A stretch of 64,000 nucleotides of DNA, from NCBI GenBank assembly GCA_965207935.1, contig CBDBNM010000002.1:77692-141691 (forward strand), given 5' to 3'. The notes beneath the pieces are model-generated. The model saw only the letters and a list, made by a program, of their open reading frames with translations. It ran no database searches and was not told the origin of the DNA. The position numbers and the translations under genes were made by a program. Source of the DNA: Dehalococcoidia bacterium. Its GTDB lineage: Bacteria > Chloroflexota > Dehalococcoidia > Lucifugimonadales > JAGWBF01. Of the stretch, positions 16,755-34,374 are shown piece by piece (position 1 is the stretch's first letter; each line of letters starts with the position of its first letter).

Positions 16755-17330
16755 GTGTCTGAACCGGATAGTGGTGGGGGGTCCAAAACGATGGTAAAGC
16801 CCCATAGCGCGCGAAAAGGTCTGGTCATCGTGAATACCGGTGAGGGCAAGGGAAAGACGACAGCTGCCCTTGGCGTGATCTTTCGCGCTTGGGGCAGCGA
16901 CCTCAGAGTCAGGATGTTTCAGTTCATTAAGCACACATCCGCGAGGTTCGGTGAGCATAAGGCAGCTGAAAAACTGGACATCCAAATAGAGGCCTTGGGT
17001 GATGGTTGTACCAGGAATTCGAGCGATTTGGAAAAATCAATCTTACTGGCCAAAGAGCAGTGGATCCGCTGCAAGCACAATATACTTAACGGCAACGAAG
17101 AGATCGTCGTTCTGGACGAGTTCACTTACCCGATGCATTATGGGTGGGTCTCTGTCGCGGATGTCGTCGATACCCTAAGACGACGACCCGAAACGATGCA
17201 CGTCATCATCACGGGTCGATATGCTCCCCAGGAGTTGATTGACTGCGCAGACCTCGTTACTGAGATGAGGTCGATTAAGCATCCCTACCATGACCAGGGC
17301 ATCAAGGCTCAACTGGGAATAGAGCTTTAG
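16755..17330 (+). CDS. cobO: cob(I)yrinic acid a,c-diamide adenosyltransferase (CobO/BtuR family)
   Basis: Motifs GLVIVNTGEGKGKTTAALG, VVLDEFTY and a C-terminus KHPYHDQGIKAQLGIEL typical of BtuR/CobO. Start chosen at GTG 16755, 5 nt after AAGGAGG. The ORF track begins at 16686. Confidence 0.8.
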   Translation: MSEPDSGGGSKTMVKPHSARKGLVIVNTGEGKGKTTAALGVIFRAWGSDLRVRMFQFIKHTSARFGEHKAAEKLDIQIEALGDGCTRNSSDLEKSILLAKEQWIRCKHNILNGNEEIVVLDEFTYPMHYGWVSVADVVDTLRRRPETMHVIITGRYAPQELIDCADLVTEMRSIKHPYHDQGIKAQLGIEL

Positions 17331-18935
17331 TGGTGTCGCGGAGGGCCATCGGGGTAATCCAGTTGGTGGGCCGGACTGGACGAAATCAAGAACCGAGGCC
17401 GATTCCCTGGTCACGCCGTCGTTGGGCATGGGCACCGTGTACGTCAGCGTCGCCTCGTCTCCCTCCACCTCGATGGCCTCAACGAAGTTCCGGACGAGCG
17501 CCTTCTTCTCCGGTATCGTCCCCTTCTTCAGAAAGTCCCGGAAGTCCGCCACGTACCGCGCTATCTCCTTGGTGTCAGGAATGGAAACCCTGCGCTGCTC
17601 TAGCTGGGCCTCGGCGTCCTCCCTAGCAGCCTCAAGCTGCTCCTCACGGTGCCTCAGGGACATGATGCGGGGCGACAGGACCTCAAGGGTCAGGTCGCTG
17701 GTCTCAATGGCCTCGTAGAGCTTCCCCAGACGCTTCCTCACGTCACCAAGCTCCGCCTCCACAACCTCCAGCCTGCCGGACAGCTCTCCCGCCATGGCGT
17801 CGATCTCCTCCGCCACAAGCTGCACCAACTCGGTGATGGTCTCCTCGGTCAGTATCCTCTCCCTGATCTTCTCCACCACGAAGGTCTCCAGCTTCGGGGC
17901 GTTCAGGTAGCGGGCGCTGCACGTCCCCGCTCCTTCCCTGAACAACGTCCCGCAGATGTAGTAGGCGAACTGGCCGCTCTTGGCTCCCTGGGCCGAATAC
18001 GGCCTGCCGCACACCCCACACTTGAGCAGCCCGCTCAACAGATACGGGCTTCCCACCCTCGCGGGCCTCTGCACCTTGGGGGCGCGCTCGCTCATCGCCT
18101 GCTGCACGGCGTCGTAAAGCTCCTTCGACACCAGCGCGGGCCACGCTCCCTCCACCCTCACCGGGTCCTGGGCCTTCTCGTTCTTGCCCTTGACTCCCCA
18201 CACGGCGGTTCCGGTGTACGCCTCGTTGCGCAGCACGTAGTGGAGTCCGCCCTTGTACCACCGCTTGCCCCTGTTGGTGACTCCCCTCTCGTTCAACTCT
18301 TTGCACAGTTCTTTGAGGCCGTAGCCCTGTAGCGACTTCTCGAATATCTCCTTCACCACGGAAGCCGTGGCCGGGTCTACCTCCAGCGAGGGACGCTCCT
18401 TGGGTCCGTCCTGCACCTTGATCTTCCGGTAGCCGAAGGGGGCCTTGGAGCCCAGGAAGAAACCTCTCGAAGCGGCCTCCCGCATCCCCCGGACGACCTC
18501 TTGGGCCAAATTCTCGCTGTAATATTCGTCCACGCTCTCGATGATTCCCTCAAGCAGCCTGCCGGTGGCGCTGTCCTCGGCCTGCTCGGTGATGGACACC
18601 ACGCGGATGCCCTTGCGCCGCAGCTGGGCCTTGAAGGCCACGGCGTGCTCCCGCTTGCGGGTGAACCTACTGAATTTCCAGACTAAGATGACCTCAAAGG
18701 GCGCCTGGGGCTTGGAGCCCTCCTCGATCATCTTCCTGAACTGGGGCCGGTCGGCGACGCGGCCGCTCTCGGCCTCGTCGATGTACTCGCGGGCCACCGA
18801 GTAGCCGTTGGCCTTCGCGTACTCCTTGAGCGCCCTTAGCTGGGCCGCCACGGACAGGTCCACGTCCTGGCGGTCGCTGGACACCCTGGCGTAGAGGGCT
18901 GCCGGCGTCAGGGGCTGCAGGTGCTTCTTCTTCAT
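17175..18935 (-). CDS. large serine recombinase (resolvase/invertase N-domain, recombinase domain, zinc ribbon, coiled coil)
   Basis: 586 aa. Motifs: ALYARVSSDRQ catalytic Ser, RPQFRKMIEE, CGVCGRPY...YYICG zinc ribbon, and a long coiled-coil region. The last ~52 codons are antisense to the cobO 3' end and are probably not native. Confidence 0.9.
   Translation of the reverse strand: MKKKHLQPLTPAALYARVSSDRQDVDLSVAAQLRALKEYAKANGYSVAREYIDEAESGRVADRPQFRKMIEEGSKPQAPFEVILVWKFSRFTRKREHAVAFKAQLRRKGIRVVSITEQAEDSATGRLLEGIIESVDEYYSENLAQEVVRGMREAASRGFFLGSKAPFGYRKIKVQDGPKERPSLEVDPATASVVKEIFEKSLQGYGLKELCKELNERGVTNRGKRWYKGGLHYVLRNEAYTGTAVWGVKGKNEKAQDPVRVEGAWPALVSKELYDAVQQAMSERAPKVQRPARVGSPYLLSGLLKCGVCGRPYSAQGAKSGQFAYYICGTLFREGAGTCSARYLNAPKLETFVVEKIRERILTEETITELVQLVAEEIDAMAGELSGRLEVVEAELGDVRKRLGKLYEAIETSDLTLEVLSPRIMSLRHREEQLEAAREDAEAQLEQRRVSIPDTKEIARYVADFRDFLKKGTIPEKKALVRNFVEAIEVEGDEATLTYTVPMPNDGVTRESASVLDFVQSGPPTGLPRWPSATPLKLYSQLSLDALVMVGMLNRPHLSNEVCAVNQLLGSISTRDDDVHRFGSSS
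17363..17394. repeat. left junction (attL-like): tRNA-Ile 3'-end-like core TTGGTGGGCCGGA, 7 nt, then AAATCAAGAACC
   Basis: Direct sequence comparison with 35115-35148. Confidence 0.5.
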
Positions 18936-19147
18936 GCTGTCCTCCTTAGATGTTACCGAGTCTTACTCAGTATCATGACTCACCAAAGGGGTCATTGTCA
19001 AGAAACGGCTGTCGGTCGCTTTTCTATATCACTCCACCGAAACCGCAAGATACCGAAAGCTGCCGTAGGACTTCCCTGGGAAGCTGGAATACTCCTGCCA
19101 GCGAAGACGATAAGACCCTCGTATCTCTATCGGTGACTCTCGGCCCT

Positions 19148-19711
19148 TCACAGTTCCCGGCCTGGCGTTGGCGGCCCACGCCAATGCTCCCGAGACTTCT
19201 CGTCCCTCGTGTATGCGAAGTCGGCGTCCACCAGGTCTCTGTGTGTGGGAGCCTTCCAGTATGACGAGTCGTTGGTCAGCAACACCGCGTATCCAGCCTT
19301 GCACTGCTCCAGCTTGAAGCGCATGCGCTCAAGTCTCTGAATGTCCCGGAGGAAGTCATACCGCCCTTGGTCTTGTGCGCTTTGGTTGCGAAGGACAAAG
19401 GATTCGTCGTCTTGCTCCAGTTCCAATCCCCGAGTCTTGTACTTCAACTCGATGGCGATCCCTTCCAACGGAAGCCAGATGTCGAGGAATCTCCTCTGGT
19501 GCTCTACCTGCATGACATCGACCTCTAATCTGACCTGACTTTCCGGCATGGCCTGGTGAATATGCCATGCCAGAGCGTGCTGGAAGTCTGCTTCAGAATG
19601 AAACAGCTTCCGCGTACTTGCCAAGCTGGTCAGAAGATCGTTAACACCGAACATTGCCTTACTCATTTCCAGCCTGCGACAAAAGCCCCTCTCATCAGTT
19701 CCCCATTGCAA
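19148..19711 (-). CDS. PD-(D/E)xK nuclease-fold protein (uncharacterised)
   Basis: SEADFQHAL...FLDIWLP...IAIELKYK gives an E...D...ExK arrangement. The likely start is the internal MSKAMF. Confidence 0.45.
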   Translation of the reverse strand: MQWGTDERGFCRRLEMSKAMFGVNDLLTSLASTRKLFHSEADFQHALAWHIHQAMPESQVRLEVDVMQVEHQRRFLDIWLPLEGIAIELKYKTRGLELEQDDESFVLRNQSAQDQGRYDFLRDIQRLERMRFKLEQCKAGYAVLLTNDSSYWKAPTHRDLVDADFAYTRDEKSREHWRGPPTPGREL

Positions 19712-19723
19712 CCCCGGTCGTTC

Positions 19724-20710
19724 CTACAGCTGGCGTGGTTCATTTCTTGAATGCTCCCACGTCTCGATGGGGGCCACATGTGGGGGAAGATAACGGTTGG
19801 CTATATCAAGCACCATACCGTAGCGGTGTTTCACCTCGTCTGTCCGATTGTCTGTGCCAAAACCGACGACGGCCCTCAGGCCTCCTGAAAGGCTAGCGAT
19901 ACCGGCTGGCGTCAGCCCGACGCTCAGTCGAGCGTCAACCAATTCCTGGAGATCAACCCTCAGTTCTTCTAAGGCACAGTGCCACTCCCAAACATACTGC
20001 AATAGCTGAAAGGGCGCGTAGAATACCTTGTAATCGTTGGTCTGGGCGTCCTTCAGCTCGATTAGAACCAGGCGCCCCTTCGGATCAACTGCAATCTGAT
20101 CTACCTTCCTAGCTTTGGCACCTATCTCTGGCTCTTTCCATCCCTGCTGCCTAGCCGTTGCCTGTATAGATTTGAGTGCTGCTTTCACCTCAAGGAACTT
20201 CTTGGTCTCTTCTCGATGCTTCGCGGATTCATAGTTAAGGACAGCCTCACGGTCGAAAGGGACCCACTGTTCCGACACTCTTGACCATCGCGATTGGACT
20301 TCGCCCTCTCCCTCTGTGAAACTCGGATTGACGTCCACGACGCTCAGATAAGCCTTAAGCGCCTCGATGAACCCACCGTCGCCAATCCTCCATCGACCAA
20401 AGAGTCCCGTTCCCTTTGCACGTGGCTGGCCCATGTACTTCGGGTCGGCGTAGGCTTTCAGGTATCTTGCAGGTCGTCGTAGCGTTTGGACTGTGAGAAT
20501 AGTCGTCAGCCCGCAGTACACCTGTATCTTGTCATTGACCCGGAAGTGTACGTCCAACTCTGTGCCCTTGAACTCAACCCGGTTCAGGGCCATCACCGGC
20601 GCGAGGAACTCCCCCGGCTTCAGGAGTCCCCGCAACTGCTCGGAAGGAGCACGCGGGTATTTGATTATCGGGGTCGCCATAGCGATCCTCCTAAAGACGG
20701 TATCGAGCAC
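19724..20710 (-). CDS. uncharacterised protein with a C-terminal PD-(D/E)xK-like motif
   Basis: 328 aa with VDQIAVDPKGRLVLIELKD (D...ExK). The N-terminal ~170 aa are unrecognised. There is a 20-nt overlap with the upstream gene. Confidence 0.4.
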   Translation of the reverse strand: MLDTVFRRIAMATPIIKYPRAPSEQLRGLLKPGEFLAPVMALNRVEFKGTELDVHFRVNDKIQVYCGLTTILTVQTLRRPARYLKAYADPKYMGQPRAKGTGLFGRWRIGDGGFIEALKAYLSVVDVNPSFTEGEGEVQSRWSRVSEQWVPFDREAVLNYESAKHREETKKFLEVKAALKSIQATARQQGWKEPEIGAKARKVDQIAVDPKGRLVLIELKDAQTNDYKVFYAPFQLLQYVWEWHCALEELRVDLQELVDARLSVGLTPAGIASLSGGLRAVVGFGTDNRTDEVKHRYGMVLDIANRYLPPHVAPIETWEHSRNEPRQL

Positions 20711-21647
20711 GCATGTAAGCCGCCCAGTCTCTCAATCCTTCAGCCTCGCCGGCGCGGACGACTTCCGATGCAGGAAGAAACGGGGCCATGGCCGTGTCGG
20801 GGAGAAGATGCTTCCAGGCATCCCAATGCTCGGCAATGTCAGTGTTGGCGTCGTGAGCGCATAGTGCGAACCATGCCCGTTCAACCATGTCCTCCTGTTC
20901 AAGGCCACGGGCTATGGCAAGGTTTCGCATAGGCTGTTGCATGTCGTAGGCGAAGGGGCATGGCCCATCCAGGTCGGCATGGGGGAATGCGTTTCTGACG
21001 GAGCCGTGACTCTTGGCGAATATCTCCCAATAGCGTCTGTCCCTACTCTTCCTCCAAGGTCTTCTGAGGTAACAGGCGTCGGGGTCATTCAAGAAGAGTA
21101 CCGCAGAGTTGCAGACATCCTTACGGCGGTTTCCCCGGCTCCGTCGTCCACCGCAATGCGTGAAGCTGCCCTCGCTGAGCTTGACCTCCATCAAGACGAC
21201 AGCGCGGCGGCCATTCTCCAGCCACCCCCATAACGCCACATCTACTCCCGTGGCAGGCTCGTTTTCAGCAGGCCACTCGCCGTCCAGTTCTCCGAGCAAT
21301 CTCCCAGGGGGAATCCACTCGAAACTCAGCCTATCAATGATTAGTTGAGCGCCAACCAGCTCGCTTAGTTGTTCGGACAAGACCTCCCTGAGTCCTTCTC
21401 GGAACGGCAGAAAGAGGTTGAACGCGAATGCCTGTGAGCTGAGTATGTGGGCGACGTGCTCATGCAGCCTGATGGAGTCGGCGCGGGCCGTCGCCTTCGC
21501 TGAATCGCGGTAGGAGTCGTATATTCCGTCCGTCCACCTGGCCCATGCCGGAGGACGTCTGCCGCCGTAGTCGCACCACTCTTCCATGTGCGCTCTAAGG
21601 GATTCAGCAAAGGGTGTTGGTCGGTAGCCGGTCCTATCGTTACTCAT
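20691..21647 (-). CDS. restriction-endonuclease-like (PD-(D/E)xK) protein
   Basis: 318 aa. LSSQAFAFNLFLPF followed by GVDVALWGW...AVVLMEVKLSE gives D...ExK. Confidence 0.45.
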   Translation of the reverse strand: MSNDRTGYRPTPFAESLRAHMEEWCDYGGRRPPAWARWTDGIYDSYRDSAKATARADSIRLHEHVAHILSSQAFAFNLFLPFREGLREVLSEQLSELVGAQLIIDRLSFEWIPPGRLLGELDGEWPAENEPATGVDVALWGWLENGRRAVVLMEVKLSEGSFTHCGGRRSRGNRRKDVCNSAVLFLNDPDACYLRRPWRKSRDRRYWEIFAKSHGSVRNAFPHADLDGPCPFAYDMQQPMRNLAIARGLEQEDMVERAWFALCAHDANTDIAEHWDAWKHLLPDTAMAPFLPASEVVRAGEAEGLRDWAAYMRARYRL

Positions 21648-21698
21648 GGGCTTCTAACGGCAATGTCCAGTAGATTCAACGTCAGTCATTGGACCGTG

Positions 21699-22583
21699 CT
21701 ATACGGCCCTGGTGTCTCCAGTTGGCTGATACCGATATCCGGTGGGAAGCTCGGCGGTTCGCAAGGCCAAATCCATTGCGTTGCGGTCAGCTGCATATAG
21801 CTCTGTAGAACCTTCTATCATCATCCTGTTCAGCGTGTTGACGAACTCCTCACCGCCCTCTTGAGGTGATGGTGCTTGACATCGTAGCAACTGCGCCTCG
21901 GGAGACTTTTCAAAGCTAATCCGGCCGGATTGGCGATCCACTTCTACGACGGGACCCAGAATCTGTCCCGCGTGGCCGTCTGACACAAGGCACAGCCCTG
22001 TGGATGGCGATAGAGGAAACCAAACAAAGGTCTCCCGCTGTGCAGATTCAGCCGTGCTGGCGCACATTATCTTGTCCGATGTGAAGAAGGACTGGGGCTT
22101 ACTCAACACGAGGGGGCACAGCAGATAGTGTGTCAATGTACGCGAGACGCTGTTCACTAGGTCTCGGAAGACCCCGACGTCCTGGTGCGACGTCAGACGG
22201 TTCATCTCCCCTTCGGCTTGTTGTTGGGTGAGCCCTGAAGTTTGACGGCACTTGTCAACAACGTGTTTGATCTGGAGACGACAGGCTTGGGAACGTACGT
22301 AGTGCATGGCGATGAAGTCATAGATGTCACGGCCAACATCCGCCTTTGCGAAATCTCCGTGACTGAATCGGTAGAGGGTGTCTTTGAACCCGTTTTCGAG
22401 GTCCGTTATGTAATCGTCAACACCCTTCGAGCAATCTACTTCGAAAATCCCGACACCTCTGATGGATCGTTCCGTTGGTCGATAACTGGACGTGTTCAGG
22501 TACCAGGTTTCCCAAGAATTGGGCTGGCGGCCCACAAATGAGAAGTTCCGGAGTAGCTGTCGCTGAATCCTGTGCTGCCCCAT
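21699..22583 (-). CDS. DUF4238-like protein
   Basis: The N-terminal QHRIQRQLLRNFSF resembles the H-x-[IV]-P/Q-x-x-x-L-x-x-F opening motif of DUF4238. 294 aa. Confidence 0.4.
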   Translation of the reverse strand: MGQHRIQRQLLRNFSFVGRQPNSWETWYLNTSSYRPTERSIRGVGIFEVDCSKGVDDYITDLENGFKDTLYRFSHGDFAKADVGRDIYDFIAMHYVRSQACRLQIKHVVDKCRQTSGLTQQQAEGEMNRLTSHQDVGVFRDLVNSVSRTLTHYLLCPLVLSKPQSFFTSDKIMCASTAESAQRETFVWFPLSPSTGLCLVSDGHAGQILGPVVEVDRQSGRISFEKSPEAQLLRCQAPSPQEGGEEFVNTLNRMMIEGSTELYAADRNAMDLALRTAELPTGYRYQPTGDTRAV

Positions 22584-22585
22584 GG

Positions 22586-23014
22586 CTACTGGCTTGCCTC
22601 TGTTCGACGTGTCTCGACCTCCACTGACAAGAATCTTGGGGCGTTGAGGATTTTCGCACCCTGATGTTCCTGGAGGGGCAACAGATGCCGCCGATCACCG
22701 GTCACGAGGTAGTCGGCGGAAGCCTCCACAGCGCACTCCAGGATGCGGTTGTCCGCATGGCATCCCTCAATCACCTCCGGTAGCCGACGGGGGTAGATTA
22801 CTGTCCCGGCGTTCCCCAGCGCTCTGAGCACCTGGGACGAGCGTTACTCATCCCAACCGAACTTACGCCCTAGCACCCCGGCAGCTTCCTCCAAGATGAA
22901 GGTGGACAGGTAAAGCTCGAACCGACCCCTGAGTGCCAGTTCAAGCACAAGGCGTTCATTGCCAGGGAAGTTCAGGCCGGAGACGATGACGTTGGTGTCG
23001 AGGACGACCCTCAT
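22586..23014 (-). pseudogene. PIN-domain toxin (PIN_3-like) interrupted by an in-frame TAA
   Basis: The ATG at 23014 overlaps the antitoxin stop (ATGA). Translation gives MRVVLDTNVIVSGL...GRKFGWDE, then TAA at 22844-22846, then the same frame continues ...ILECAVEASADYLVTGDRRHLLPL. Confidence 0.7.
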
Positions 23015-23268
23015 GCACGGGCCGAGCCGATCTCGGCCCGGTACTCTTCCACCAGAGCGGCCACGTCTTCAGGCCCGATGCCCTTCGCCCTGGCCCGCTC
23101 CTCTCCGTACCGGAGAAGCTGTCTCCACTCCAACTCCTCGATGTAGCGCAGCAGCGCCTCACGAAGAAACTCGCTCCGGGACCGTCCCTGCTGCTTCATC
23201 ACCGCGTCCACCCGGTCGGCCATGTCCGGCGGCAGGGAGAAGGTAATGGTCTTGGTGGTTCGCGACAT
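23011..23268 (-). CDS. ribbon-helix-helix (CopG/MetJ-type) antitoxin
   Basis: 85 aa. KTITFSLPPDMADRVDAVMKQQGRSRSEFLREALLRYI is a typical RHH. It has a 4-nt overlap with the PIN gene. Confidence 0.75.
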   Translation of the reverse strand: MSRTTKTITFSLPPDMADRVDAVMKQQGRSRSEFLREALLRYIEELEWRQLLRYGEERARAKGIGPEDVAALVEEYRAEIGSARA

Positions 23269-26730: not shown

Positions 26731-29700
26731 CTAGCTACGCGCCAACCCATCTGGCCCCACTACGAGTTCCCAGGCCACCAGTTCCAAGTCCTCGACCGAT
26801 GGTTTCCTGGTCTCAGGTCGTGCGATAGGGCGGTCAAGTCCTTCGGCTTGGACAGCCCCTCGGAGCGCAGTCAGCGCCTGAACCACTTGCCCTTGTTCTG
26901 CACGAGTTGGCGCAAGCCGGTTTATGACTCTCACCGGGTCTCGCATTACCACGCGCCTGGTCGCGTCCGATGGTAACGGCATTTCAACCCACTCGTTGAA
27001 GAAGCTGAATAGGTCGGGGTGAGATTGCAATAGGTCGTCACGATTGAGGAACTGTCTAATGCGTCTCGTGAAACTGTCGGATGTAACTGCGGATATGGCG
27101 TCCAAGTATGCTTGGCCGATCTGGTCCACGGCGGCTTTCAGAGGCTCCTTTAGGTGTTTGAATGGGTTTTCGTTAGGCGGTATCTCGAAGCGGTGCTCAT
27201 CTCTGCCGGCCTCCACAATGGATAGGACATCACTTGGCGATGTCAGGGGTTGCGCCACGTTGCCCAGTGGATAGAAGCGCCAGAACACTTCGCCCGACGC
27301 CTCTTCGGGCATTTTCAGCATGACGTAGACACCGTTCGCCATGCCCTTCTTCACACTGTAAACCCCGTTGGGAATGTCCCGTACGTCCTCGGTAGCGAAC
27401 TCCTTCATCATGTCCAGATACCTGTTCAGCAACTCCGCGCCCGCGTCCAGTCCCTGGCTTCGCTCGCCCTCTCGGTACACGTGGTCCGCCTGGACTCCGC
27501 CGGCTCGCAGCTGCATCACCTTGTCCAGTTCCTTCGCCTCAATCTGCTCACCGAGCACCGAGGCGTCCAAAGCGACCGCCTCCTCTATGGTCTCAATCTT
27601 CCTTGTCAGGTTCTGAACCAGATTCAGTAGGTCTTCTAGGCCGTGCTCAGGCATCAGGTTGTAGATGTACACCTTGTCGTGGGGAGAAAACAGGCGGTCG
27701 ATGCGACCAGCCCGTTGGATCATCCTCACCGGGTTCCAGGGCAGGTCGTAGTTGACCAGGAACTGGGCATCCTGGAGGTTCTGGCCCTCCGAGAGTACGT
27801 CTGTGGCTATCAACAATTCGATGCCCTGCGCTCTCAGAGGCTCTATCTTCCTAAGAAGGGCGGGATCATCCAGAGGTTCGGTCTCGCGATGTGCTGCCAA
27901 GGGCGCGAACCGCTCAAGCACCGAACGCCTCCGATTCCGGTCATCTCCGCCGGTTAGCAGGGACATCCACCGTGCATCCTTCAGATTGCTCTGAACGCGG
28001 ACAGTGCTCTTCAATGAGTCCACATCTCCGCCGAACTGCTTAAACAGGTGTTGGGCGGTGTCCTTGTAGGTCGTAAACAGGGCTACCTTGGTGGGTTGCC
28101 CTTGGTCATCCTCTTTTGGCAGTCCTTCGAGCAGCTTGCGCACAGCCTGGGCCTTGGGGTCGCCCTGCTCGGCCAGCATCTCCTCCAGCCACTGAAGCCG
28201 AGTGAGAAGCGTCTGAAGCCTGTCCCGGTCGAACTCCACATCTGCCTGCAACCGCCCTCGAAGGTCCACGTCCTCCGGCGCAACAAGTTCCTGTTGCAAT
28301 GCCGCCACTGCCTTGGGGTCCATGTCCTCTAGGTCCTGGTCGTGGTCGGGCAACGAACCCCCCAGCACACCCCGCAGCTTGTATGCCTGCTTGGGGGTCA
28401 GGACATGTCCCTGATCCAGCCTCGCAAGGAAAAGGTTGAGATAGTCTACTAGACTTCTCACCGTGGACGTGAGCGCGGCCAGGGAACTCTCCATGCGCTT
28501 CAAGAGGATGGTGCGCATGATGCCGACGAAGTTGGCGTTGCGTTGCTTCAGTTGTGCGCTGGTCTCCTTCTCACCAGTCTCAACGCCGTACTCGTCCAGG
28601 CGGTAGACGGCGAAGTTGAGGTGCTCAATGGCGTCGATGATGTCGTGGTAGATGTTTCCATACAGGCCTTGCAGACTGTAGTCCACCGCCTTCGGTATCT
28701 CGTGTTCCGGGAAGCGCAGCGGCTGCCCATTGACCTCCATCGTCTCTCCTGCATCCTGCATGGACCGGATGTCGTGACGGGTTCGGCGTACGAGGGACAG
28801 CATCATAGTGTCCAGTAGGCCGGAGTCGGACTCCCCCTTCTCAATGGCCTGGAACGCCGTTTTGAGGTTGGGTATTGGCCCTCGCCCTGCGTACCAGGTG
28901 TCGTCTCCCCTCGTGATGAGCATGAGCTGGTGATACATATCCCAGACGGAGTTGTTGATGGGCGTGGCTGTCATCAGCACCACCCTGGTGTCCGGTTTGC
29001 CCCCTCGGATGATCTCCATAAGGGCGCGGTAGCGCTTCGTCCTTGGGTTGCGGAAGTTGTGGGACTCGTCCACCAGGATGACGTCGTACTGGTCCTGGTA
29101 ACGCTTCAACTCGGCCCGGAGCCGCTGCCGTTGAACGGGTGACGGCTCCTCGTCGATGTCCACGAGGCTGGGAAGCGACTCCATTGTGACCGTGGTGGCG
29201 ATGATTCCCCACTCTGCGAACCTGTCGGTGCTCCAGTTGTCCTGAAGCTGGGCGGGGCAGACGATCAACGCCCGCGTGGAGGTTCTCGCTCGCTGCGGGT
29301 CATCGCTCCGCTGGTTGGCGAATTCCCTCAGGATGCCCAAGCCTTCGTAGGTCTTGCCTAAGCCCACCGAGTCGCACAGCATGGCCCCCCAGTGGCGTCT
29401 CAGCAATGCTACGCAGCGTTGGACGGCCTGCTGCTGGAATCCGGCCAGCCTCCCCATGACTTCTTCCGACAGCCCCATCTCCAGGAACCGGCCGTAGGCG
29501 GCATGTAGTGACTTGAGCATGACCTGCCACGGGGTGTAGCGCCTCCCGAACAGGACACACTCTTCTAGGCGCTGGACGAACTGTGCCTTGCAGTCCTGGC
29601 CAAGCTCCCACTTCTCGTCGAACCAGCCTTCCAATTGCACCGTCAGGTCATGGTCGTAAGAGGTCAGGTTCAACTCGGAGTTCTCGGATAGGCCGCTCTT

Positions 29701-30303
29701 GGTTAGGTTGCTGGAGCCGACGGCGGCATATCGTCCCATCTCGCCGGAGAACAGGTACGCCTTGGCGTGAAGTCGATTCCTCGGCGAGCGGTGGTCCAGC
29801 ACCTGTTCGGGCAGCACCTTTCCTCTATCGGACCCGAGGAATCGCCTGACCTCCACCCCGTCCTTTCTCAGGAAGTCGGCCAGCGTAGTGACCCGCTCCC
29901 ATGCGGACAGGTCGAAGGCTGCCGCCTCCGGCGTCACTCCGCGTGCCAGAAGCTCCCGCCGTTCCTCGTGAGTCAGCAGCAGCCACGGGTAGCCGCCTTC
30001 GAGGAAGGTGTACCAGTCCACGGACTCCTCTGGGCCTCGAAGCTCGTCGCGGTCGCCGGGTTGGGACAGTACGTCTCCCGGCCCACGCCGATTCATGAAG
30101 GGCCGTTCTCCCAGCAACAGCCGCACTCTGGCGGCTCCCTCCATGCCATGCTTCAGGTCTAGGAATCCATCGGGTGTCAGGTATGCCGTTGCGATGCGAA
30201 TGTCCTGAGGGATGACGCGAGCCAGCGCACCGAATAGATGCTCCCGCATGAAGCCTGTTGTCGGCTCGTTGGCAACTGGAAGGACGTCTGTCTCATTGGT
30301 CAT
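26731..30303 (-). CDS. PLD-family (HKD) nuclease domain fused to an SNF2-family helicase
   Basis: 1190 aa. N-terminal motifs: IRIATAYLTPDGF...RLHAKAYLF...VGSSNLTKSG (HxK...GSxN). Then SNF2 motifs: DSVGLGKTYEG, ILVDESHNFRN, LMTATPINNS, ATDVLSEGQNLQD and WNPVRMIQRAGRIDR. Confidence 0.9.
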   Translation of the reverse strand: MTNETDVLPVANEPTTGFMREHLFGALARVIPQDIRIATAYLTPDGFLDLKHGMEGAARVRLLLGERPFMNRRGPGDVLSQPGDRDELRGPEESVDWYTFLEGGYPWLLLTHEERRELLARGVTPEAAAFDLSAWERVTTLADFLRKDGVEVRRFLGSDRGKVLPEQVLDHRSPRNRLHAKAYLFSGEMGRYAAVGSSNLTKSGLSENSELNLTSYDHDLTVQLEGWFDEKWELGQDCKAQFVQRLEECVLFGRRYTPWQVMLKSLHAAYGRFLEMGLSEEVMGRLAGFQQQAVQRCVALLRRHWGAMLCDSVGLGKTYEGLGILREFANQRSDDPQRARTSTRALIVCPAQLQDNWSTDRFAEWGIIATTVTMESLPSLVDIDEEPSPVQRQRLRAELKRYQDQYDVILVDESHNFRNPRTKRYRALMEIIRGGKPDTRVVLMTATPINNSVWDMYHQLMLITRGDDTWYAGRGPIPNLKTAFQAIEKGESDSGLLDTMMLSLVRRTRHDIRSMQDAGETMEVNGQPLRFPEHEIPKAVDYSLQGLYGNIYHDIIDAIEHLNFAVYRLDEYGVETGEKETSAQLKQRNANFVGIMRTILLKRMESSLAALTSTVRSLVDYLNLFLARLDQGHVLTPKQAYKLRGVLGGSLPDHDQDLEDMDPKAVAALQQELVAPEDVDLRGRLQADVEFDRDRLQTLLTRLQWLEEMLAEQGDPKAQAVRKLLEGLPKEDDQGQPTKVALFTTYKDTAQHLFKQFGGDVDSLKSTVRVQSNLKDARWMSLLTGGDDRNRRRSVLERFAPLAAHRETEPLDDPALLRKIEPLRAQGIELLIATDVLSEGQNLQDAQFLVNYDLPWNPVRMIQRAGRIDRLFSPHDKVYIYNLMPEHGLEDLLNLVQNLTRKIETIEEAVALDASVLGEQIEAKELDKVMQLRAGGVQADHVYREGERSQGLDAGAELLNRYLDMMKEFATEDVRDIPNGVYSVKKGMANGVYVMLKMPEEASGEVFWRFYPLGNVAQPLTSPSDVLSIVEAGRDEHRFEIPPNENPFKHLKEPLKAAVDQIGQAYLDAISAVTSDSFTRRIRQFLNRDDLLQSHPDLFSFFNEWVEMPLPSDATRRVVMRDPVRVINRLAPTRAEQGQVVQALTALRGAVQAEGLDRPIARPETRKPSVEDLELVAWELVVGPDGLARS

Positions 30304-30331: not shown

Positions 30332-30724
30332 CTACACTGAAACGATGCTCAGCCCCCGCATCCGCTCGAAATGCTGCGTGTTGTTGGTGAGCAGCGTCAG
30401 GTTGTTGCTTATCGCTGTGGCGCCTATCAGGATGTCCATATCTCCTATGAGATTCCCTTCTTCTCGCAGCCTGGCCCTTTCCGCGCCGAAGACCCGGCAG
30501 GCTTCATCGTCCAGCGGAACCACATTCACCGCTTCCAGGAACAGGCGCAGCGCCTCGGAGTCGGAATAAGGATTTCGGGATCGGGCCAGACCCTCGTAGA
30601 GTTCGGCCAAGGAAATTATGCTCATGCCGACTCCATCGGGCAGGAGTGCCTCCAACCGCCTGGCCGTTCTATCGGCCCTGTGCAGGTAGTCGATTGCCCA
30701 GTCTGTGTCCACGAGATACTCCAT
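30332..30724 (-). CDS. vapC: VapC-type PIN-domain toxin, with no separate antitoxin gene upstream
   Basis: 130 aa with YLVDTDWAIDYL, SLAELYEG, IGDMDILIGATAISNNLTLLTNN and HFERM. It starts 11 nt after the methyltransferase stop codon. Confidence 0.85.
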   Translation of the reverse strand: MEYLVDTDWAIDYLHRADRTARRLEALLPDGVGMSIISLAELYEGLARSRNPYSDSEALRLFLEAVNVVPLDDEACRVFGAERARLREEGNLIGDMDILIGATAISNNLTLLTNNTQHFERMRGLSIVSV

Positions 30725-30735: not shown

Positions 30736-33700
30736 CTAGAGCCTTGGTACGGGCCGCGTGCGGATGTCTCGGCTGGCGCGGATGTCTCTAATCAGTTCAT
30801 CCCCGTCAACACTCCATTTCCATGCACCGGCGGAGGCTTTCAAGGTGTTTAGTTTCCTCCAGTCCGACGGCATATCGGCACCCAACGCCTCGCGGCGTTC
30901 CCCAAGCCAATCGAGCATCAGTTTCCGTTCAGAAGCAGACAAGTCATACACATGAAAAACGATGGAGTCAATCTCCCGTTCGATACCCTCCAATTCTTCA
31001 GGCGAATTCTCAAAGCCAACTATTTCGTTTCCAAGCCGCTCGAGTTCAGCTTGGGCTTCGGTGCCGGGGGTTACGATAGGAGTTGGCTCGATGTAGCCAA
31101 TCTTGAACTCCTGAAACGAACCCCCGCGTGCAACCGTCAGCTTTGGGTAAAGGAAGTTGAGCACCGAAGAATTCATCATTGGCAACAGCCAACGCACTGG
31201 CTCAACTAGGAAGTTGGCAGGAGCGGAAATATACGCTTGGGATGTGTCTCTGGCAAATTTACTCTCTACTGCGAGGTTCCCCCACACAACTTTGGGGTGT
31301 TCGAACTCATGATAGAGACCCTCCTGCGGCTGTTGAAGCTCGTACCACGGGTGTAAATGTGCCGTAGCCCGCTCCTCAAGGTCGCTGCGAAACCACCTCA
31401 GATGGTCTCTGATGGCAGGATACTGATCTACGTCTACCCCACGACTCGTGAAGATGATGTAGAGTCCCGGTGAATGTGCCTTCCACCGCTTGATGTCCCG
31501 TCCGCGTAGCCACGGCTTGATGAGCTCCGCGCTTCGCGGGTCGTCCTCAATCAGTTCGTCACGCTTGTCCTGGTCTATGACGAACGCCTCGTTCAGACCT
31601 GTCTTGACGCCGTAGTACATGCGCCTATTGACGAACTCACCCAACGGAGTGCCCAGATTCATCAGCCGCTCGAAGAGGCGTATCAGGGCAGGATCTTCCA
31701 GAATCCAGCCATCCTTCTTCAGCATGACTTGGGGGAAATCGCCAATTGCGACCCTTGCGAGCAGCCCATCCAAGTCCTCCAACATGCCTCGCACCCTCTC
31801 GGTGTTGATTCTAAAGTCAGCTTCGGAGAGTTCCTTCCTAACGGGGGCGGATAGGTCGGCGACGGTCAGTGCGTGTCCCGCCATGTCATCTGCCCGGCGA
31901 CCCACTAACACAGCCGGGTACGCCGCGATAGCTTTGCCATTAGCTTCGAACAGAGGTAGATCGCCGAAATCGATTACGCTCTTTATGCGTAGTGAATTGG
32001 GCAAGTGTCCGCGGGTCCCCGCTCCATAGCCAGCCCGCATGTATTTGTTGCTGGTAATGAAGGCCAGCCAACCGCCGGGTCGAAGTAGTTGTAAGGCACG
32101 CGCGTAGAAGTAAACGAGGAGGTCCGCCCGTGAAGCGGCCACCTCCGGGAATGCCTCTCCATAGAAGAGTTCGTCCTCGTTGTCGATTCTCTCCATACGC
32201 ACATAGGGCGGGTTGGCAAGAACGATGTCGAAACCTGCCTCGGGATCGCCCTGTTGCAGGACATTGGGGAAGGCAACCGGCCACAGGAAGGGCTTCTGCA
32301 CTAGCGCGAAGTCCGTTGACTCCACTCCATCTCGAAGGGAGCGAATGCGCTCCATGAATCGGTCGGCTCTCCTCAGCGCGGCCTTACTGGGCTTCTCGGC
32401 TTTTCGTAGAGCCGCCCGCTTCTCCTCGGCCTTCCCCAGCGCATCTGTTAGGTGCAGAAGGATTATCTCCCGCTGGTCGCGGGCGATCAGGTCTCGCAAT
32501 TCACGGAGACGGGTCGGGTTTCTGTGTGTCCTCTCGAACTCCCTCCGCCGTTGGTCGATGTTGCGCTCCAATCTCTGGAGGCGGCTCTGGAGTTCCATGT
32601 CCAGTTGTATGCTTTTGGGCGCGGGCCAAGACTCCTTGAAGGTCACGCCCGCCACCCCGTCTACCAGCGAGTCGCCAGCCAGAATCTGAAAGTCCAGGTT
32701 GGGCAGTGCCCAATCGGAGTTCGGTTCAGGCGGCTCATCCATGTCCAACACCATAGAGAGCCAGAGGCGCAAGCGGCATATCTCAACGGCCTCAGGATTG
32801 ATGTCCACTCCGTAGAGGCTGCTCTCTATGATGCGCCGCTTCCATTCGCTCACTGTCCGGTAGAACTCGTTAGGCTCGACGTGGTTGCGCTGAGAGAAGA
32901 GAATCCCGCGACGCAGGGTCACCATCTCTTGGATGGTTCCTAGTAGGAACGCCCCTGAGCCGACGGCCGGATCGCAAACTCGCACCGTTTCCATCGCGTC
33001 GATGAGCGCATTAGCTGGGAAGTCTGGCAGAGGCTGATGCTCGTCCCTGGAACCAACGGCCTCTTGGCGCAGGGCCTCCAGGGTAGAATTTTCAACGCCG
33101 GTGGCATCACGCAAGTATCCGTCCAGGGCCTCCCGACACATGAAGTGGACAATCTCACGAGGGGTGTAGTAAGTGCCGGTGTCGTGACGCTCATCCCCCT
33201 GGTAGAGGTTCTCAAAGACCCGGCCTAGTAGCTCAGGATCTGGGTCAACGGATTGGTCGTCCGGCGTTGACTCTCTGGTGGTGAACCGATAGCGAGAAAG
33301 CAGGCCGAGGAGGGTTCGCTGCTGGCCTTCTTCACTATCGGCATCGGGGTCGAACACTTCGTCCGGCAGGGACACCTGCCCCGCGTCGTCGATGCGATCC
33401 TCCAGCGCGTTCCGACGGAACAGGCCACCATTTAGGTAGGGGACGTATCCCAGGACTGGGTGTTCGCTCCTACTGCTGCTCCCCGTCGCCATCGCATCGA
33501 AGAACATCGGGGTCAGGATGCCGCGATAGTATTCGCCCTCTTGCGTCTCTGCCCGTTTGTCCCAAAGATTCAGCAAGTAAGTCGGCGAACCCATCCCTCC
33601 GGGTGCTCCCAGCCAACGCTTGGCCTGAAGGAACCAGAGAAAGAGCACCCGGCCCATCTGTCGGGTGGCCCAGGCGCGGGCCTCCTCCTCGCCGAGAGAA

Positions 33701-34374
33701 GTGATTACGGGATGCTCCGGGTTGTGGGCTAGGAGCGCCTTGGCTATACGGTCCCGGACGGCGGCATACTCCTGGTAGAACCTGGTGGTTACGCGCTCAA
33801 CGCTGAATTGTTCTTGCCACAGTCTCGACACTTCCAAGAGGCTCGCCTCGTGCGGGATGCGCAAACCGCGCAGCAGATCTCGATGGAACCGAGTCGGCTT
33901 GTCCAAGTCGAGGTGGGCACGGACGCTGGTCACAGACCCGTTGGAAGCCCTAATCTGCGTGCGGGGAAAGACCAACTCAGCCTCGCGTCGCGAGTCGTTG
34001 GATGGAGGAACCAACAAGGCTAAGGCCCGCCTGTCAGGTACATGTTCTACCAGAGCGCGGGTGATGCGCCTTCGCGACCGATCCCTATCTGACGATTTGT
34101 AACCCCAGTCCGAGAGTACGCCGATCCACAGTCCAGCTTCCGCCGGTTCTGCCTTGCAACTCCCTACCCGATAGAGTTCGCTTACCCCGAAGCCTCCGTC
34201 GCCTCGGCCACGCAGAAACTGTTTGAGTCCGCCAGAAAGAGCACCAGCCAATCGGTCCTCTGGGCTCGGGACTGGGTCGAAACCCAAGAACGCGGCCAAG
34301 CTCCCCGCCCTCTGGGGATCGCCGCCGAAGTCCTGAAGGATACTGGCTACGTTACCGTCAGCGCCTAAAGTCAT
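30736..34374 (-). CDS. large N6-adenine DNA methyltransferase (Eco57I / type IIG / BREX PglX-like gamma class) with extra N- and C-terminal regions
   Basis: 1212 aa. Motif I is VCDPAVGSGAFLLG and motif IV is VLANPPYVRME. A TaqI-C-like region follows. The usual family C-terminus (VYDLSASERKLM) is followed by ~50 additional residues. Confidence 0.9.
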   Translation of the reverse strand: MTLGADGNVASILQDFGGDPQRAGSLAAFLGFDPVPSPEDRLAGALSGGLKQFLRGRGDGGFGVSELYRVGSCKAEPAEAGLWIGVLSDWGYKSSDRDRSRRRITRALVEHVPDRRALALLVPPSNDSRREAELVFPRTQIRASNGSVTSVRAHLDLDKPTRFHRDLLRGLRIPHEASLLEVSRLWQEQFSVERVTTRFYQEYAAVRDRIAKALLAHNPEHPVITSLGEEEARAWATRQMGRVLFLWFLQAKRWLGAPGGMGSPTYLLNLWDKRAETQEGEYYRGILTPMFFDAMATGSSSRSEHPVLGYVPYLNGGLFRRNALEDRIDDAGQVSLPDEVFDPDADSEEGQQRTLLGLLSRYRFTTRESTPDDQSVDPDPELLGRVFENLYQGDERHDTGTYYTPREIVHFMCREALDGYLRDATGVENSTLEALRQEAVGSRDEHQPLPDFPANALIDAMETVRVCDPAVGSGAFLLGTIQEMVTLRRGILFSQRNHVEPNEFYRTVSEWKRRIIESSLYGVDINPEAVEICRLRLWLSMVLDMDEPPEPNSDWALPNLDFQILAGDSLVDGVAGVTFKESWPAPKSIQLDMELQSRLQRLERNIDQRRREFERTHRNPTRLRELRDLIARDQREIILLHLTDALGKAEEKRAALRKAEKPSKAALRRADRFMERIRSLRDGVESTDFALVQKPFLWPVAFPNVLQQGDPEAGFDIVLANPPYVRMERIDNEDELFYGEAFPEVAASRADLLVYFYARALQLLRPGGWLAFITSNKYMRAGYGAGTRGHLPNSLRIKSVIDFGDLPLFEANGKAIAAYPAVLVGRRADDMAGHALTVADLSAPVRKELSEADFRINTERVRGMLEDLDGLLARVAIGDFPQVMLKKDGWILEDPALIRLFERLMNLGTPLGEFVNRRMYYGVKTGLNEAFVIDQDKRDELIEDDPRSAELIKPWLRGRDIKRWKAHSPGLYIIFTSRGVDVDQYPAIRDHLRWFRSDLEERATAHLHPWYELQQPQEGLYHEFEHPKVVWGNLAVESKFARDTSQAYISAPANFLVEPVRWLLPMMNSSVLNFLYPKLTVARGGSFQEFKIGYIEPTPIVTPGTEAQAELERLGNEIVGFENSPEELEGIEREIDSIVFHVYDLSASERKLMLDWLGERREALGADMPSDWRKLNTLKASAGAWKWSVDGDELIRDIRASRDIRTRPVPRL

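What the first reader, a model, noticed from the sequence alone, without database searches (positions are those of the whole stretch)
19148..22583. Three consecutive PD-(D/E)xK-like nuclease genes plus a DUF4238-like gene
Four co-directional genes sit next to the recombinase. One pair overlaps by 20 nt.

Three of them each show an independent D…(E/D)xK arrangement: LDIW…IELK, VDQIAVD…LIELK and VDVALW…LMEVK. Otherwise they are dissimilar to one another. The fourth opens with a DUF4238-like motif, a domain often seen in defence islands.

I do not recognise this combination as a named system. There is no methyltransferase, ATPase or sensor-type gene in the cluster.
Basis: partly seen in the sequence, partly recalled or inferred. 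Interest (0 to 1): 0.7.

Follow-up and report, generated by a model that had tools for sequence, protein, structure and literature searches.

The report
Mosaic nuclease cargo on mobile island
The four genes are not one system. They are three unrelated modules in the cargo slot of a 17.8-kb mobile island, and only one of them, a conserved and uncharacterised pair of nucleases that is sometimes fused into one protein, is of real interest.

Summary

- **G3** (20691-21647) is a PD-(D/E)xK nuclease by Pfam (REase-ARP and PDDEXK_13).
- **G2** (19724-20680) founds a family with no Pfam model. It has invariant D..ExK plus QxxxY, a confident AF2 model, and weak structural matches enriched in nucleases.
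- **G1** (19029-19654) has a conserved E..D..ExK. It is a pseudogene here, and independently so in the only other copy of the element.
- **G4** (21699-22583) is a divergent DUF4238 protein.

The four do not form a system. All four occur together only in a 99%-identical copy of the same element.
- G3+G2 are a conserved pair: adjacent in 24 of 40 genome loci, with fusions in both orders.
- G2 otherwise pairs with an MBL-fold hydrolase, a G1-like protein or a SmaI-like R-M system.
- G1 and G4 are stand-alone families found elsewhere without the others.

The genes fill a swappable slot (RHH-PIN-[cargo]-G1-serine recombinase) in a tRNA-Ile-integrated element, 17363-35146. That element also carries a Type IIG-like methyltransferase and a PLD-SNF2 helicase.

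Best reading: a defence-type island, with G3-G2 as a candidate methylase-independent two-nuclease enzyme. Function is untested.

The parts
17363..17374 (+). Left att repeat (TTGGTGGGCCGG), marking one end of the mobile element
   Evidence: There are only two matches in the window, against 0.07 expected by chance. Identity with the second copy of the element (L134) stops at 17364.
17175..18935 (-). Large serine recombinase. Its ORF reads across the element end into the cobO 3' region.
   Evidence: Pfam Resolvase, Recombinase and Zn_ribbon_recom domains. Only residues 1-524 are shared with the L001 copy.
19029..19654 (-). G1: a PD-(D/E)xK-like orphan gene (208 aa in the family) that is part of the element backbone. 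It is a pseudogene here, through a 1-nt deletion at about 19218.
   Evidence: More than 2,193 homologues, mostly 208 aa. Conserved E21, D58, E69 and K71. Frameshift relative to L001, and L001 carries its own nonsense codon. The order RHH-PIN-377aa-G1-SerRec recurs in L046, L050 and L051. The AF2 model has pLDDT 73 and only weak nuclease-like PDB hits.
19724..20680 (-). G2: a new PD-(D/E)xK family (318 aa), with an N-terminal beta-rich domain and a C-terminal MmcB/RecB-like nuclease domain. It is the constant member of the conserved pair.
   Evidence: 226 close homologues, none with a Pfam domain. 665 representatives at 50% clustering. Invariant D194, E208, K210, Q225 and Y229. AF2 pLDDT 94. 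Foldseek hits are weak but enriched in nucleases: SduA, NucS, SfsA, MmcB-like. Sub-threshold Pfam hits to MmcB-like, SduA_C and NucS_C.
20691..21647 (-). G3: a PD-(D/E)xK nuclease of the REase-ARP/PDDEXK_13 type and the usual partner of G2. It has five invariant cysteines.
   Evidence: Pfam REase-ARP 7e-21 and PDDEXK_13 1e-17, both above cut-off. Invariant E110, D136, E154, K156 and C165, C179, C192, C230, C263. Adjacent to G2 in 24 of 40 genome loci, including fusions.
21699..22583 (-). G4: a divergent DUF4238 protein, an independent single-gene module
   Evidence: Pfam DUF4238 at 25.6 bits, cut-off 27. 16 of 32 relatives hit DUF4238 and no other family. Relatives stand alone among transposases or next to a Type ISP enzyme. 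Absent from every G2 locus except the twin element.
22586..23014 (-). PIN_3 toxin gene, inactivated here by a GAA to TAA nonsense codon at 22844-22846
   Evidence: Two PIN_3 half-ORFs. The gene is intact at 142 aa in L001. A single G to T substitution accounts for the difference.
23011..23268 (-). RHH (CopG-type) antitoxin. A promoter-like site lies upstream at 23329-23300.
   Evidence: Pfam RHH_1 9e-11. The promoter scan gave consensus matches only, not above chance.
26731..30303 (-). PLD (HKD) + SNF2 helicase, on the same element
   Evidence: Pfam PLDc_2, SNF2-rel_dom and Helicase_C. PADLOC HKD+Snf2 2e-50 and DrmD-like hits. NCBIfam scores are far below the family cut-offs.
30332..30724 (-). 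Small PIN-domain gene
   Evidence: Pfam PIN 6e-16. Called as a 130-aa gene in L134.
30736..34374 (-). Type IIG-like / DrmMI-like N6-adenine methyltransferase (1212 aa)
   Evidence: Pfam Eco57I, N6_Mtase and TaqI_C. PADLOC REase_MTase_IIG 7e-97 and DrmMI 5e-41.
34371..34877 (-). HTH_17 / excisionase-like DNA-binding protein
   Evidence: Pfam HTH_17. NCBIfam excisionase domain, sub-threshold.
35135..35146 (+). Right att repeat (TTGGTGGGCCCG), which overlaps the 3' end of tRNA-Ile (35136-35212, minus strand)
   Evidence: Identity with L134 ends at 35144. L134 also has GGCCCACCA at both ends.

Best explanation
The region is the cargo slot of a 17.8-kb integrative element (17363-35146). The element is bounded by 12-bp direct repeats, inserted at the 3' end of tRNA-Ile, and mobilised by a large serine recombinase. 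The four genes are three independent modules.

1. G4 is a stand-alone DUF4238 protein. The only tested DUF4238 protein is a single-gene anti-T7 system.
2. G3+G2 are a conserved, translationally coupled pair of PD-(D/E)xK nucleases.
3. G1 is an orphan nuclease-like gene of the element backbone, and it is decaying here.

Inferred mechanism for G3-G2: the two proteins form a hetero-oligomeric DNA endonuclease.
- G2 supplies a beta-rich N-terminal DNA-reading domain and an MmcB/RecB-like active site.
- G3 supplies a second active site, stabilised by a Cys cluster. In other loci an MBL-fold nuclease or a G1-like protein takes this role.
- Together they make or process double-strand breaks.
- No methyltransferase is linked in 38 of 40 loci. 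Discrimination of target DNA is therefore most likely by DNA modification or DNA structure (Type IV-like or Shedu-like), not by host methylation.

Shown: gene content, family membership, conservation of catalytic residues, pairing and fusion, element boundaries, pseudogenes. Inferred: complex formation, DNA cleavage, a defence role.
For: Element:
- 99.1% identity over 17,782 bp with a second genome, with unrelated flanks.
- Flanking repeats occur twice in the window against 0.07 expected, and the second copy also has repeats at both ends.

Cargo slot:
- Homology with sister element L046 covers RHH-PIN (84%) and G1+recombinase (86%) but not G4-G3-G2.
- Sister elements carry a 377-aa gene in the slot instead.

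G3-G2 unit:
- G3 is adjacent to G2 in 24 of 40 genome loci from at least six phyla.
- In-frame fusions exist in both orders: G2::G3 in L012, L027, L035 and P0339; G3::G2 in P0393.
- A PDDEXK_13::G2 fusion occurs in L042.
- The G3 stop overlaps the Shine-Dalgarno sequence of G2.
- Catalytic residues are invariant in both proteins.

Partner swapping: MBL-fold hydrolase in 7 loci, G1-like in L011/L013 (adjacent) and L016 (2 kb away), SmaI-like R-M in 2 loci.

Independence of G1:
- 80 metagenome loci have no G2, G3 or G4 nearby and no conserved neighbour.
- G1 is independently inactivated in both copies of the element.

Independence of G4.

Defence-type setting:
- The element carries a Type IIG-like methyltransferase, a PLD-SNF2 helicase, two PIN genes and a DUF4238 gene.
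- A DUF4238 single-gene system protects against T7 (PMC9122126).
Against: - There are no experimental data for any of these proteins.
- G2 and G1 have no significant structural neighbour: best Foldseek E-values are 0.018 and 0.26.
- Immediate neighbours of the G3-G2 pair in 39 loci are mostly housekeeping genes, with few PADLOC hits. Enrichment in defence islands is therefore not shown.
- A 2.2-kb G1-like+G2 cassette is shared at 84% identity between two taxa. G1-type proteins can therefore be true partners of G2, and the G2-G1 adjacency here may not be pure coincidence.
- The closest folds (MmcB, NucS, SfsA) are repair or housekeeping nucleases.
- Many G2 and G3 copies in MAGs are frameshifted or interrupted. 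This could reflect decay or assembly error.
Confidence: 0.6

Rival explanations
1. One reading: the four genes form one new multi-nuclease defence system, with three nucleases and a DUF4238 protein acting together.
For: - The genes are co-directional and tightly spaced. They may share the promoter-like site upstream of the RHH gene.
- All four are kept in the twin element.
- G1-like proteins are sometimes real neighbours of G2.
Against: - The only co-occurrence of all four is a 99%-identical copy of the same element.
- G4 is absent from the other 40 G2 loci.
- G1 is a pseudogene in both copies, through different mutations.
- Each family occurs on its own elsewhere.
- The homology breakpoints separate G1 from G4-G3-G2.
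Confidence: 0.05
2. G3-G2 is a DNA repair or maintenance nuclease pair, in the manner of MmcB, NucS/EndoMS or SfsA, and not an immune system. Its presence on the island is incidental cargo.
For: - The best fold and profile neighbours include MmcB-like proteins, NucS/EndoMS and SfsA.
- Most chromosomal copies lie among housekeeping genes, without integrases or defence genes next to them.
Against: - Distribution is patchy across at least six phyla.
- Two divergent paralogues occur in one genome, with homology limited to the gene itself.
- Disruption is frequent.
- The partner nuclease is swapped between loci.
- The pair sits in a swappable cargo slot beside toxin-antitoxin and R-M-type genes.

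These are features of accessory or conflict genes, not of core repair.
Confidence: 0.2
3. G3-G2 is a selfish nuclease cassette (homing-like or addiction-like) that spreads and persists for its own benefit.
For: - Compact cassettes have been transferred as units with unrelated flanks (L011/L013 and L012/L035).
- In L042 a PDDEXK_13::G2 gene sits between rplL and rpoB, in frame with rpoB, flanked by diverged duplications of the rpoB 5' end.
Against: - There is only a single such insertion case, from one MAG.
- No conserved target site or terminal repeats were seen around other copies.
- No antitoxin-like or immunity partner was identified.
Confidence: 0.12
4. The nuclease motifs are fortuitous and the proteins are not nucleases.
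For: - The loose D..[ED]xK pattern is present in 55% of large ORFs in the window.
- G1 and G2 have no Pfam hit above threshold and no significant PDB match.
Against: - G3 passes two Pfam nuclease models.
- The motif residues are invariant or nearly invariant across each family, down to about 40-50% identity.
- G2 additionally carries the RecB-type QxxxY motif.
- The weak structural hits are dominated by PD-(D/E)xK enzymes.
Confidence: 0.03

Closest known systems
Rst_DUF4238 (single-gene anti-T7 system from the P2 prophage hotspot; Rousset et al. 2022, PMC9122126)
   Same: G4 is a single DUF4238-type gene sitting in a variable cargo slot of a mobile element. Its relatives also stand alone.
   Different: G4 scores just under the Pfam cut-off (25.6 against 27). 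It matched no PADLOC model. It is found in uncultivated Chloroflexota-type genomes. Its activity is untested.
Hotspots of defence genes in mobile elements (P2/P4 hotspots, integrative islands)
   Same: A conserved backbone (RHH-PIN ... G1-serine recombinase) carries interchangeable cargo between fixed breakpoints.
   Different: The backbone is a serine-recombinase element at tRNA-Ile, not a phage or a satellite. Only two kinds of cargo have been seen so far.
Shedu (SduA) and other stand-alone PD-(D/E)xK defence nucleases
   Same: Methylase-independent PD-(D/E)xK nuclease. SduA was the PDB hit with the highest probability for G2 (0.85).
   Different: The SduA_C domain is not detected: 1 of 30 members at E 0.07. 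G2 works with a second nuclease and has a different N-terminal domain.
NucS/EndoMS, SfsA and MmcB repair nucleases
   Same: A beta-rich N-terminal domain followed by a C-terminal PD-(D/E)xK domain. These are weak fold and profile neighbours.
   Different: There is no significant sequence or structure match. G2 has a patchy, mobile distribution and an obligate-looking nuclease partner.
Heterodimeric Type II restriction enzymes (for example BbvCI; from general knowledge) and Type IV modification-dependent enzymes
   Same: Two different PD-(D/E)xK subunits could each cut one strand. The absence of a cognate methylase resembles Type IV enzymes.
   Different: No methyltransferase is linked in 38 of 40 loci, and no NTPase is present. 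The specificity determinant is unknown. No membership test is possible from sequence alone.
DISARM / Type IIG R-M (applies to the neighbouring genes, not to the finding itself)
   Same: DrmD-like SNF2 helicase and DrmMI/Type IIG-like methyltransferase on the same element.
   Different: NCBIfam scores are far below the equivalog cut-offs (144 against 610 for DrmD). No homologue of the window's methyltransferase, and only weak PLD-SNF2 matches in two loci, lie near G3-G2 in other genomes.

Membership tests
PD-(D/E)xK superfamily - G3 | Match to a curated PD-(D/E)xK family model above its threshold | tested here: met
   REase-ARP 75.5 bits and PDDEXK_13 64.8 bits, both against a cut-off of 27.
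PD-(D/E)xK superfamily - G3 | Conserved E...D...ExK catalytic residues | tested here: met
   E110, D136, E154 and K156 are invariant in 17 orthologues and also in the PDDEXK_13-type L042 protein.
PD-(D/E)xK superfamily - G2 | Conserved D...ExK catalytic residues (plus QxxxY in the RecB-like branch) | tested here: met
   D194, E208, K210, Q225 and Y229 are invariant in 30 sequences at 45-82% identity.
PD-(D/E)xK superfamily - G2 | Match to a curated family model above threshold | tested here: not met
   Only sub-threshold hits: MmcB-like E 0.014-0.06 in 3 of 30 members, SduA_C in 1 of 30, NucS_C in 1 of 30. No PDB sequence match.
PD-(D/E)xK superfamily - G2 | Restriction-endonuclease-like fold | tested here: inconclusive
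   The model has pLDDT 94. The best Foldseek E-values are 0.018 (PDB) and 0.006 (BFVD), none significant. The top hits are dominated by PD-(D/E)xK nucleases.
PD-(D/E)xK superfamily - G1 | Conserved catalytic residues | tested here: met
   E21 and D58 are invariant. E69 is nearly invariant and K71 invariant in 25 sequences.
PD-(D/E)xK superfamily - G1 | Curated model or fold match | tested here: inconclusive
   DpnII-MboI REase at E 0.075 (window) and 0.0098 (L013 homologue), below cut-off. The model has pLDDT 73. Foldseek best E is 0.26, with EcoRI, Hjc, MGME1 and AbaSI among the hits.
Functional gene - G1 in this window | Intact reading frame | tested here: not met
   A 1-nt deletion at about 19218 shifts the frame. 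The twin element has a CAG to TAG nonsense codon instead.
DUF4238 (PF14022) - G4 | Score at or above the Pfam gathering threshold | tested here: inconclusive
   The window protein scores 25.6 bits against a cut-off of 27 (E 1e-5), covering profile positions 94-272 of 281. 16 of 32 relatives hit DUF4238 at E <= 1e-3, and no other family is hit. 14 of the 98 homologues carry a precomputed PF14022 hit.
Rst_DUF4238 defence system | Single-gene unit that works alone and protects against phage | not testable with these tools
   The stand-alone context is met. No PADLOC model was matched. Anti-phage activity needs experiment.
One multigene system (G4+G3+G2+G1) | Co-occurrence of the components across unrelated genomes | tested here: not met
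   All four occur together only in the 99%-identical twin element. Among the 40 genome loci holding G2, G4 is present in none and G1-like genes in three.
Two-gene module (G3+G2) | Conserved adjacency and gene fusion across taxa | tested here: met
   G3 lies next to G2 in 24 of 40 loci, including in-frame G2::G3 fusions in three of them. Separately, the representative search found fused proteins in both orders (P0339 G2::G3, P0393 G3::G2). L042 carries one PDDEXK_13::G2 fusion.
Type II restriction-modification | Cognate methyltransferase linked to the nuclease genes | tested here: not met
   A methyltransferase lies next to G2 only in L029 and L037, with a SmaI-like REase. No homologue of the window's methyltransferase was found in any other G2 locus.
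Integrative mobile element | Same DNA in different genomic contexts, bounded by repeats, with a recombinase | tested here: met

The most novel reading that the evidence does not exclude
G2 defines a new, widespread family: about 665 clusters at 50% identity, with no Pfam model and no PADLOC model. It would be the constant subunit of a modular two-nuclease system. Its partner nuclease is exchangeable (REase-ARP/PDDEXK_13, MBL-fold, G1-like). The system would restrict foreign DNA without any methyltransferase or NTPase, which makes it a previously undescribed type of innate immune nuclease.
Probability: 0.3. Interest if true: 0.6.

Novelty: new variant of a known kind. Interest (0 to 1): 0.4.

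Why it matters
As a four-gene system the finding dissolves. It is a mosaic of cargo genes on a mobile island, which is an ordinary arrangement.

What remains is a conserved nuclease pair that sometimes occurs as a fusion. One member has no family model in Pfam or PADLOC, and the partner nuclease is swapped between lineages.

If the pair is a methylase-free restriction-like enzyme, it adds a new modular architecture to nuclease-based immunity and gives a tractable two-protein target for biochemistry.

The element itself shows a clean cargo-slot organisation in uncultivated Chloroflexota-type bacteria. That slot could be mined for further defence candidates, such as the 377-aa Zn-ribbon protein coupled to G1.

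Tried and rejected
- **Exact-sequence look-up of G3** found nothing. Relatives were reached through G2 instead.
- **Meaning of 'ARP' in Pfam REase-ARP.** Literature searches for REase-ARP, PF22558, PDDEXK_13, and MmcB plus phage defense returned nothing useful. The meaning could not be resolved.
- **Sequence searches against the PDB** gave no relatives for any of the four proteins.
- **NCBIfam** gave nothing for the four proteins. **PADLOC** gave only noise-level hits.
- **Plasmid and phage collections.**
  - G2 is absent from both.
  - G3 has only two distant plasmid hits.
  - G1 is absent from phages. It is present on 15 plasmids as a hypothetical protein or putative nuclease.
- **Idea that G1, G2 and G3 are diverged paralogues.** Rejected: hhalign probabilities are below 1%.
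- **Idea that the methyltransferase and helicase of the element work with G3-G2.** Rejected: they do not accompany the pair elsewhere.
- **Rfam scan of the 3.4-kb gene-poor stretch** found nothing.
- **L045**, labelled Klebsiella, holds only G3/G2 fragments on a contig whose sequence does not look like Klebsiella. It was set aside as probable mis-binning.
- **Technical failures.** One script timed out.

Full report
**1. What is there**

Between 19029 and 22583 the minus strand carries four consecutive genes. I call them G4, G3, G2 and G1 in order of transcription.

| Gene | Coordinates | Length | Notes |
|---|---|---|---|
| G4 | 21699-22583 | 294 aa | |
| G3 | 20691-21647 | 318 aa | |
| G2 | 19724-20680 | 318 aa | Mechanical ORF starts at GTG 20710 |
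| G1 | 19029-19654 | 208 aa in the family | Frameshifted here |

- A 99%-identical homologue of G2 is 318 aa. ATG 20680 is preceded by AGGAGG, which overlaps the G3 stop codon. The reported 20-nt overlap is therefore really a 10-nt coupled junction.
- G1 was given as 19148-19711. The family is 208 aa. The missing C-terminus is encoded in another frame down to 19029.

Upstream lie an RHH antitoxin gene (23011-23268) and a PIN_3 toxin gene (22586-23014). Downstream lies a large serine recombinase (17175-18935).

**2. Are they nucleases?**

*G3.* It passes two Pfam PD-(D/E)xK models: REase-ARP 7e-21 and PDDEXK_13 1e-17. In 17 orthologues E110, D136, E154 and K156 are invariant, and so are five cysteines.

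*G2.*
- It has 226 close homologues, none with a Pfam domain, and 665 representatives at 50% clustering.
- D194, E208, K210, Q225 and Y229 are invariant. This is D..ExK plus the RecB-type QxxxY.
- The AlphaFold model is confident: pLDDT 94, pTM 0.91.
- It has no significant structural neighbour. The best weak hits are nearly all PD-(D/E)xK enzymes: SduA, NucS/EndoMS, SfsA, EcoO109I, Exo5, FokI and MmcB-like proteins.
- Sub-threshold Pfam hits point the same way.
- The N-terminal 150 residues form a separate beta-rich domain with conserved aromatic and acidic residues.

*G1.*
- It belongs to a large family (more than 2,193 hits; at least 553 metagenome loci).
- E21, D58, E69 and K71 are conserved.
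- Profile and fold support is only marginal: DpnII-MboI at E 0.01-0.08, model pLDDT 73, Foldseek E >= 0.26.

*Relationship between the three.* They are unrelated to one another by hhalign.

*Chance.* The bare motif is common by chance, occurring in 23 of 42 large ORFs. The case rests on family conservation, not on the motif.

*G4.* It scores 25.6 bits on DUF4238 against a cut-off of 27. Half of its relatives (16 of 32) hit that family and nothing else.

**3. Do they belong together?**

A scan of one genome per species found 40 loci with a full-length G2. They come from Chloroflexota/Dehalococcoidia, Binatia, Acidobacteriota, Nitrospinota, Myxococcota and Proteobacteria. The gene next to G2 in these loci is as follows.

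| Partner of G2 | Loci |
|---|---|
| G3 of the REase-ARP type | 24 |
| PDDEXK_13 domain, fused (L042) | 1 |
| 415-aa MBL-fold hydrolase | 7 |
| G1-like protein (L011, L013 adjacent; L016 2 kb away) | 3 |
| SmaI-like R-M pair (L029, L037) | 2 |
| No recognisable partner | 3 |

- In L012, L027 and L035, G2 and G3 are one reading frame.
- The representative search also found fusions in both orders: P0339 is G2::G3 and P0393 is G3::G2.
- G4 was found in none of these loci.
- The only place with all four genes is L001/L134, which is the same element at 99% identity.
- G4 relatives sit alone among transposases or beside a Type ISP enzyme.
- Eighty metagenome loci with G1 relatives contain no G2, G3 or G4 and have no recurrent neighbour.
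- Plasmid homologues of G1 are annotated as hypothetical proteins or as a putative nuclease.

**4. The element**

- Window 17364-35144 is 99.1% identical over 17,782 bp to a contig from another assembly, and the flanks are unrelated on both sides.
- The ends carry the direct repeat TTGGTGGGCC(G/C)G at 17363-17374 and 35135-35146. It occurs twice in the window against 0.07 expected.
- The right copy is the 3' end of tRNA-Ile.
- The second copy of the element also has GGCCCACCA at both ends.

Gene content, from the tRNA end:
1. HTH/excisionase-like gene
2. 1212-aa Type IIG/DrmMI-like methyltransferase
3. PIN gene
4. PLD-SNF2 helicase
5. 3.4-kb gene-poor stretch with repeats
6. RHH and PIN_3 genes
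7. G4, G3, G2 and G1
8. Serine recombinase

.

Sister elements L046, L050 and L051 have the order RHH-PIN-377aa-G1-recombinase. DNA homology between the window and L046 covers RHH-PIN (to 22626) and G1+recombinase (from 19641), and nothing in between. G4-G3-G2 is therefore exchanged cargo, and G1 is part of the backbone.

**5. Decay**

- In the window, G1 has lost one T from a TTT run. The twin element has the TTT but carries a CAG to TAG stop earlier in the gene. These are two independent inactivations in elements that differ by 1%.
- The PIN_3 gene of the window has a GAA to TAA substitution, and it is intact in the twin.
- G1 is normally start-stop coupled to the 377-aa protein (7999/8001 in L046). 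Loss of that partner may explain why G1 is decaying; this is inference.

**6. How it most likely works**

The conserved unit is G3+G2. Adjacency, translational coupling and fusion in both orders argue for a physical complex. Invariant active sites in both proteins argue that both cut.

I infer a hetero-oligomeric DNA endonuclease. G2 reads DNA through its N-terminal domain, and the partner nuclease supplies a second catalytic centre. Partner exchange for an MBL-fold or G1-like protein fits an effector-swap pattern.

No methyltransferase accompanies the pair in 38 of 40 loci. Self-protection must therefore come from what the enzyme recognises, such as modified bases, DNA ends or DNA structures.

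Several observations favour a conflict role over core repair, but they do not prove it:
- the setting on a mobile island, beside toxin-antitoxin genes, a DUF4238 gene and R-M-type genes;
- the patchy distribution across phyla;
- paralogous copies in one genome (L012/L035);
- cassette transfer (L011/L013);
- frequent disruption of copies.

Against a conflict role:
- the nearest genes around the pair in 39 loci are mostly housekeeping, with few PADLOC hits;
- the closest folds are repair nucleases.

**7. Comparison with known systems**

- G4 resembles the single-gene DUF4238 system that protects E. coli against T7 (PMC9122126).
- G3-G2 is not Shedu, NucS, MmcB or a Type II R-M system by any tested defining feature.
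- It is absent from PADLOC 2.0.
- It is also absent from the plasmid and phage collections.
- I could not find what 'ARP' in the Pfam name stands for. If it denotes the G2 family, the pair has already been noted by the Pfam curators.

**8. Verdict**

Reading the four genes as one system is not supported.

The result is an ordinary mosaic defence-type island. It contains one interesting component: an undescribed nuclease pair that is sometimes fused into one protein and whose partner is exchangeable.

- Interest: 0.4
- Novelty: new variant of a known kind

Noticed in passing
L042:8867-15499 (Gammaproteobacteria MAG OZ244045.1): A PDDEXK_13::G2 fusion sits between rplL and rpoB, in one 2210-aa reading frame with rpoB. 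Diverged direct repeats of the rpoB 5' end (9893-10018 against 11019-11177, 75-88% identity) flank the G2 part. This could be an in-frame mobile insertion, or it could be an assembly artefact.
   Followed up: partly
window 23300-26730: A 3.4-kb stretch has no convincing genes and a strong G excess on the plus strand (GC skew up to 0.26). It contains two tandem pairs of a roughly 57-nt repeat (23526-23640 and 25700-25815). It is conserved in the twin element. There is no Rfam match.
   Followed up: partly
window 22844-22846: The PIN_3 toxin gene of the RHH-PIN pair is cut by a GAA to TAA nonsense substitution. The gene is intact (142 aa) in the 99%-identical twin element.
   Followed up: yes
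L046:6866-7999 (also L050, L051; shorter variant at L049:6937-7887): A 377-aa protein has a PD..EVVD nuclease-like N-terminus and many CxxC Zn-ribbon motifs. It is start-stop coupled to G1 in the common form of the element backbone. It has no Pfam or PADLOC hit.
   Followed up: partly
window 20691-21647 (G3): Five invariant cysteines (C165, C179, C192, C230, C263) are present in REase-ARP-type G3 orthologues but not in the PDDEXK_13-type L042 protein. They suggest a Zn or Fe-S cluster.
   Followed up: no
window 17175-17364 and 16686-17330: The recombinase ORF runs about 190 nt past the element end and overlaps the 3' end of cobO on the other strand. Recombinase length differs between copies (513-586 aa), in step with the flank.
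   Followed up: partly
window 36818-37507: An SfsA homologue, a genuine PD-(D/E)xK protein, lies just outside the element. It was one of only four ORFs in the window matching the strict motif pattern.
   Followed up: no
window 10052-16351: A 2099-aa ORF (TTG start, minus strand) of near-identical tandem repeat units, apparently an extracellular repeat protein. I ran no domain search on it.
   Followed up: no
window 7490-7548: Rfam reports a weak tRNA match (36.6 bits) that ARAGORN does not call. It may be a tRNA fragment or a pseudo-att site.
   Followed up: no
L045 (CAMASI010000001.1, labelled Klebsiella pneumoniae MAG): The contig holds fragments of G3 and G2 and does not look like Klebsiella DNA. 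It is probably mis-binned.
   Followed up: partly
L012:9980-11899 and L035:9776-11920 (same genome, OZ244723.1): Two paralogous G2::G3 fusion genes lie 130 kb apart and are 77% identical. Homology is confined to the gene itself.
   Followed up: partly
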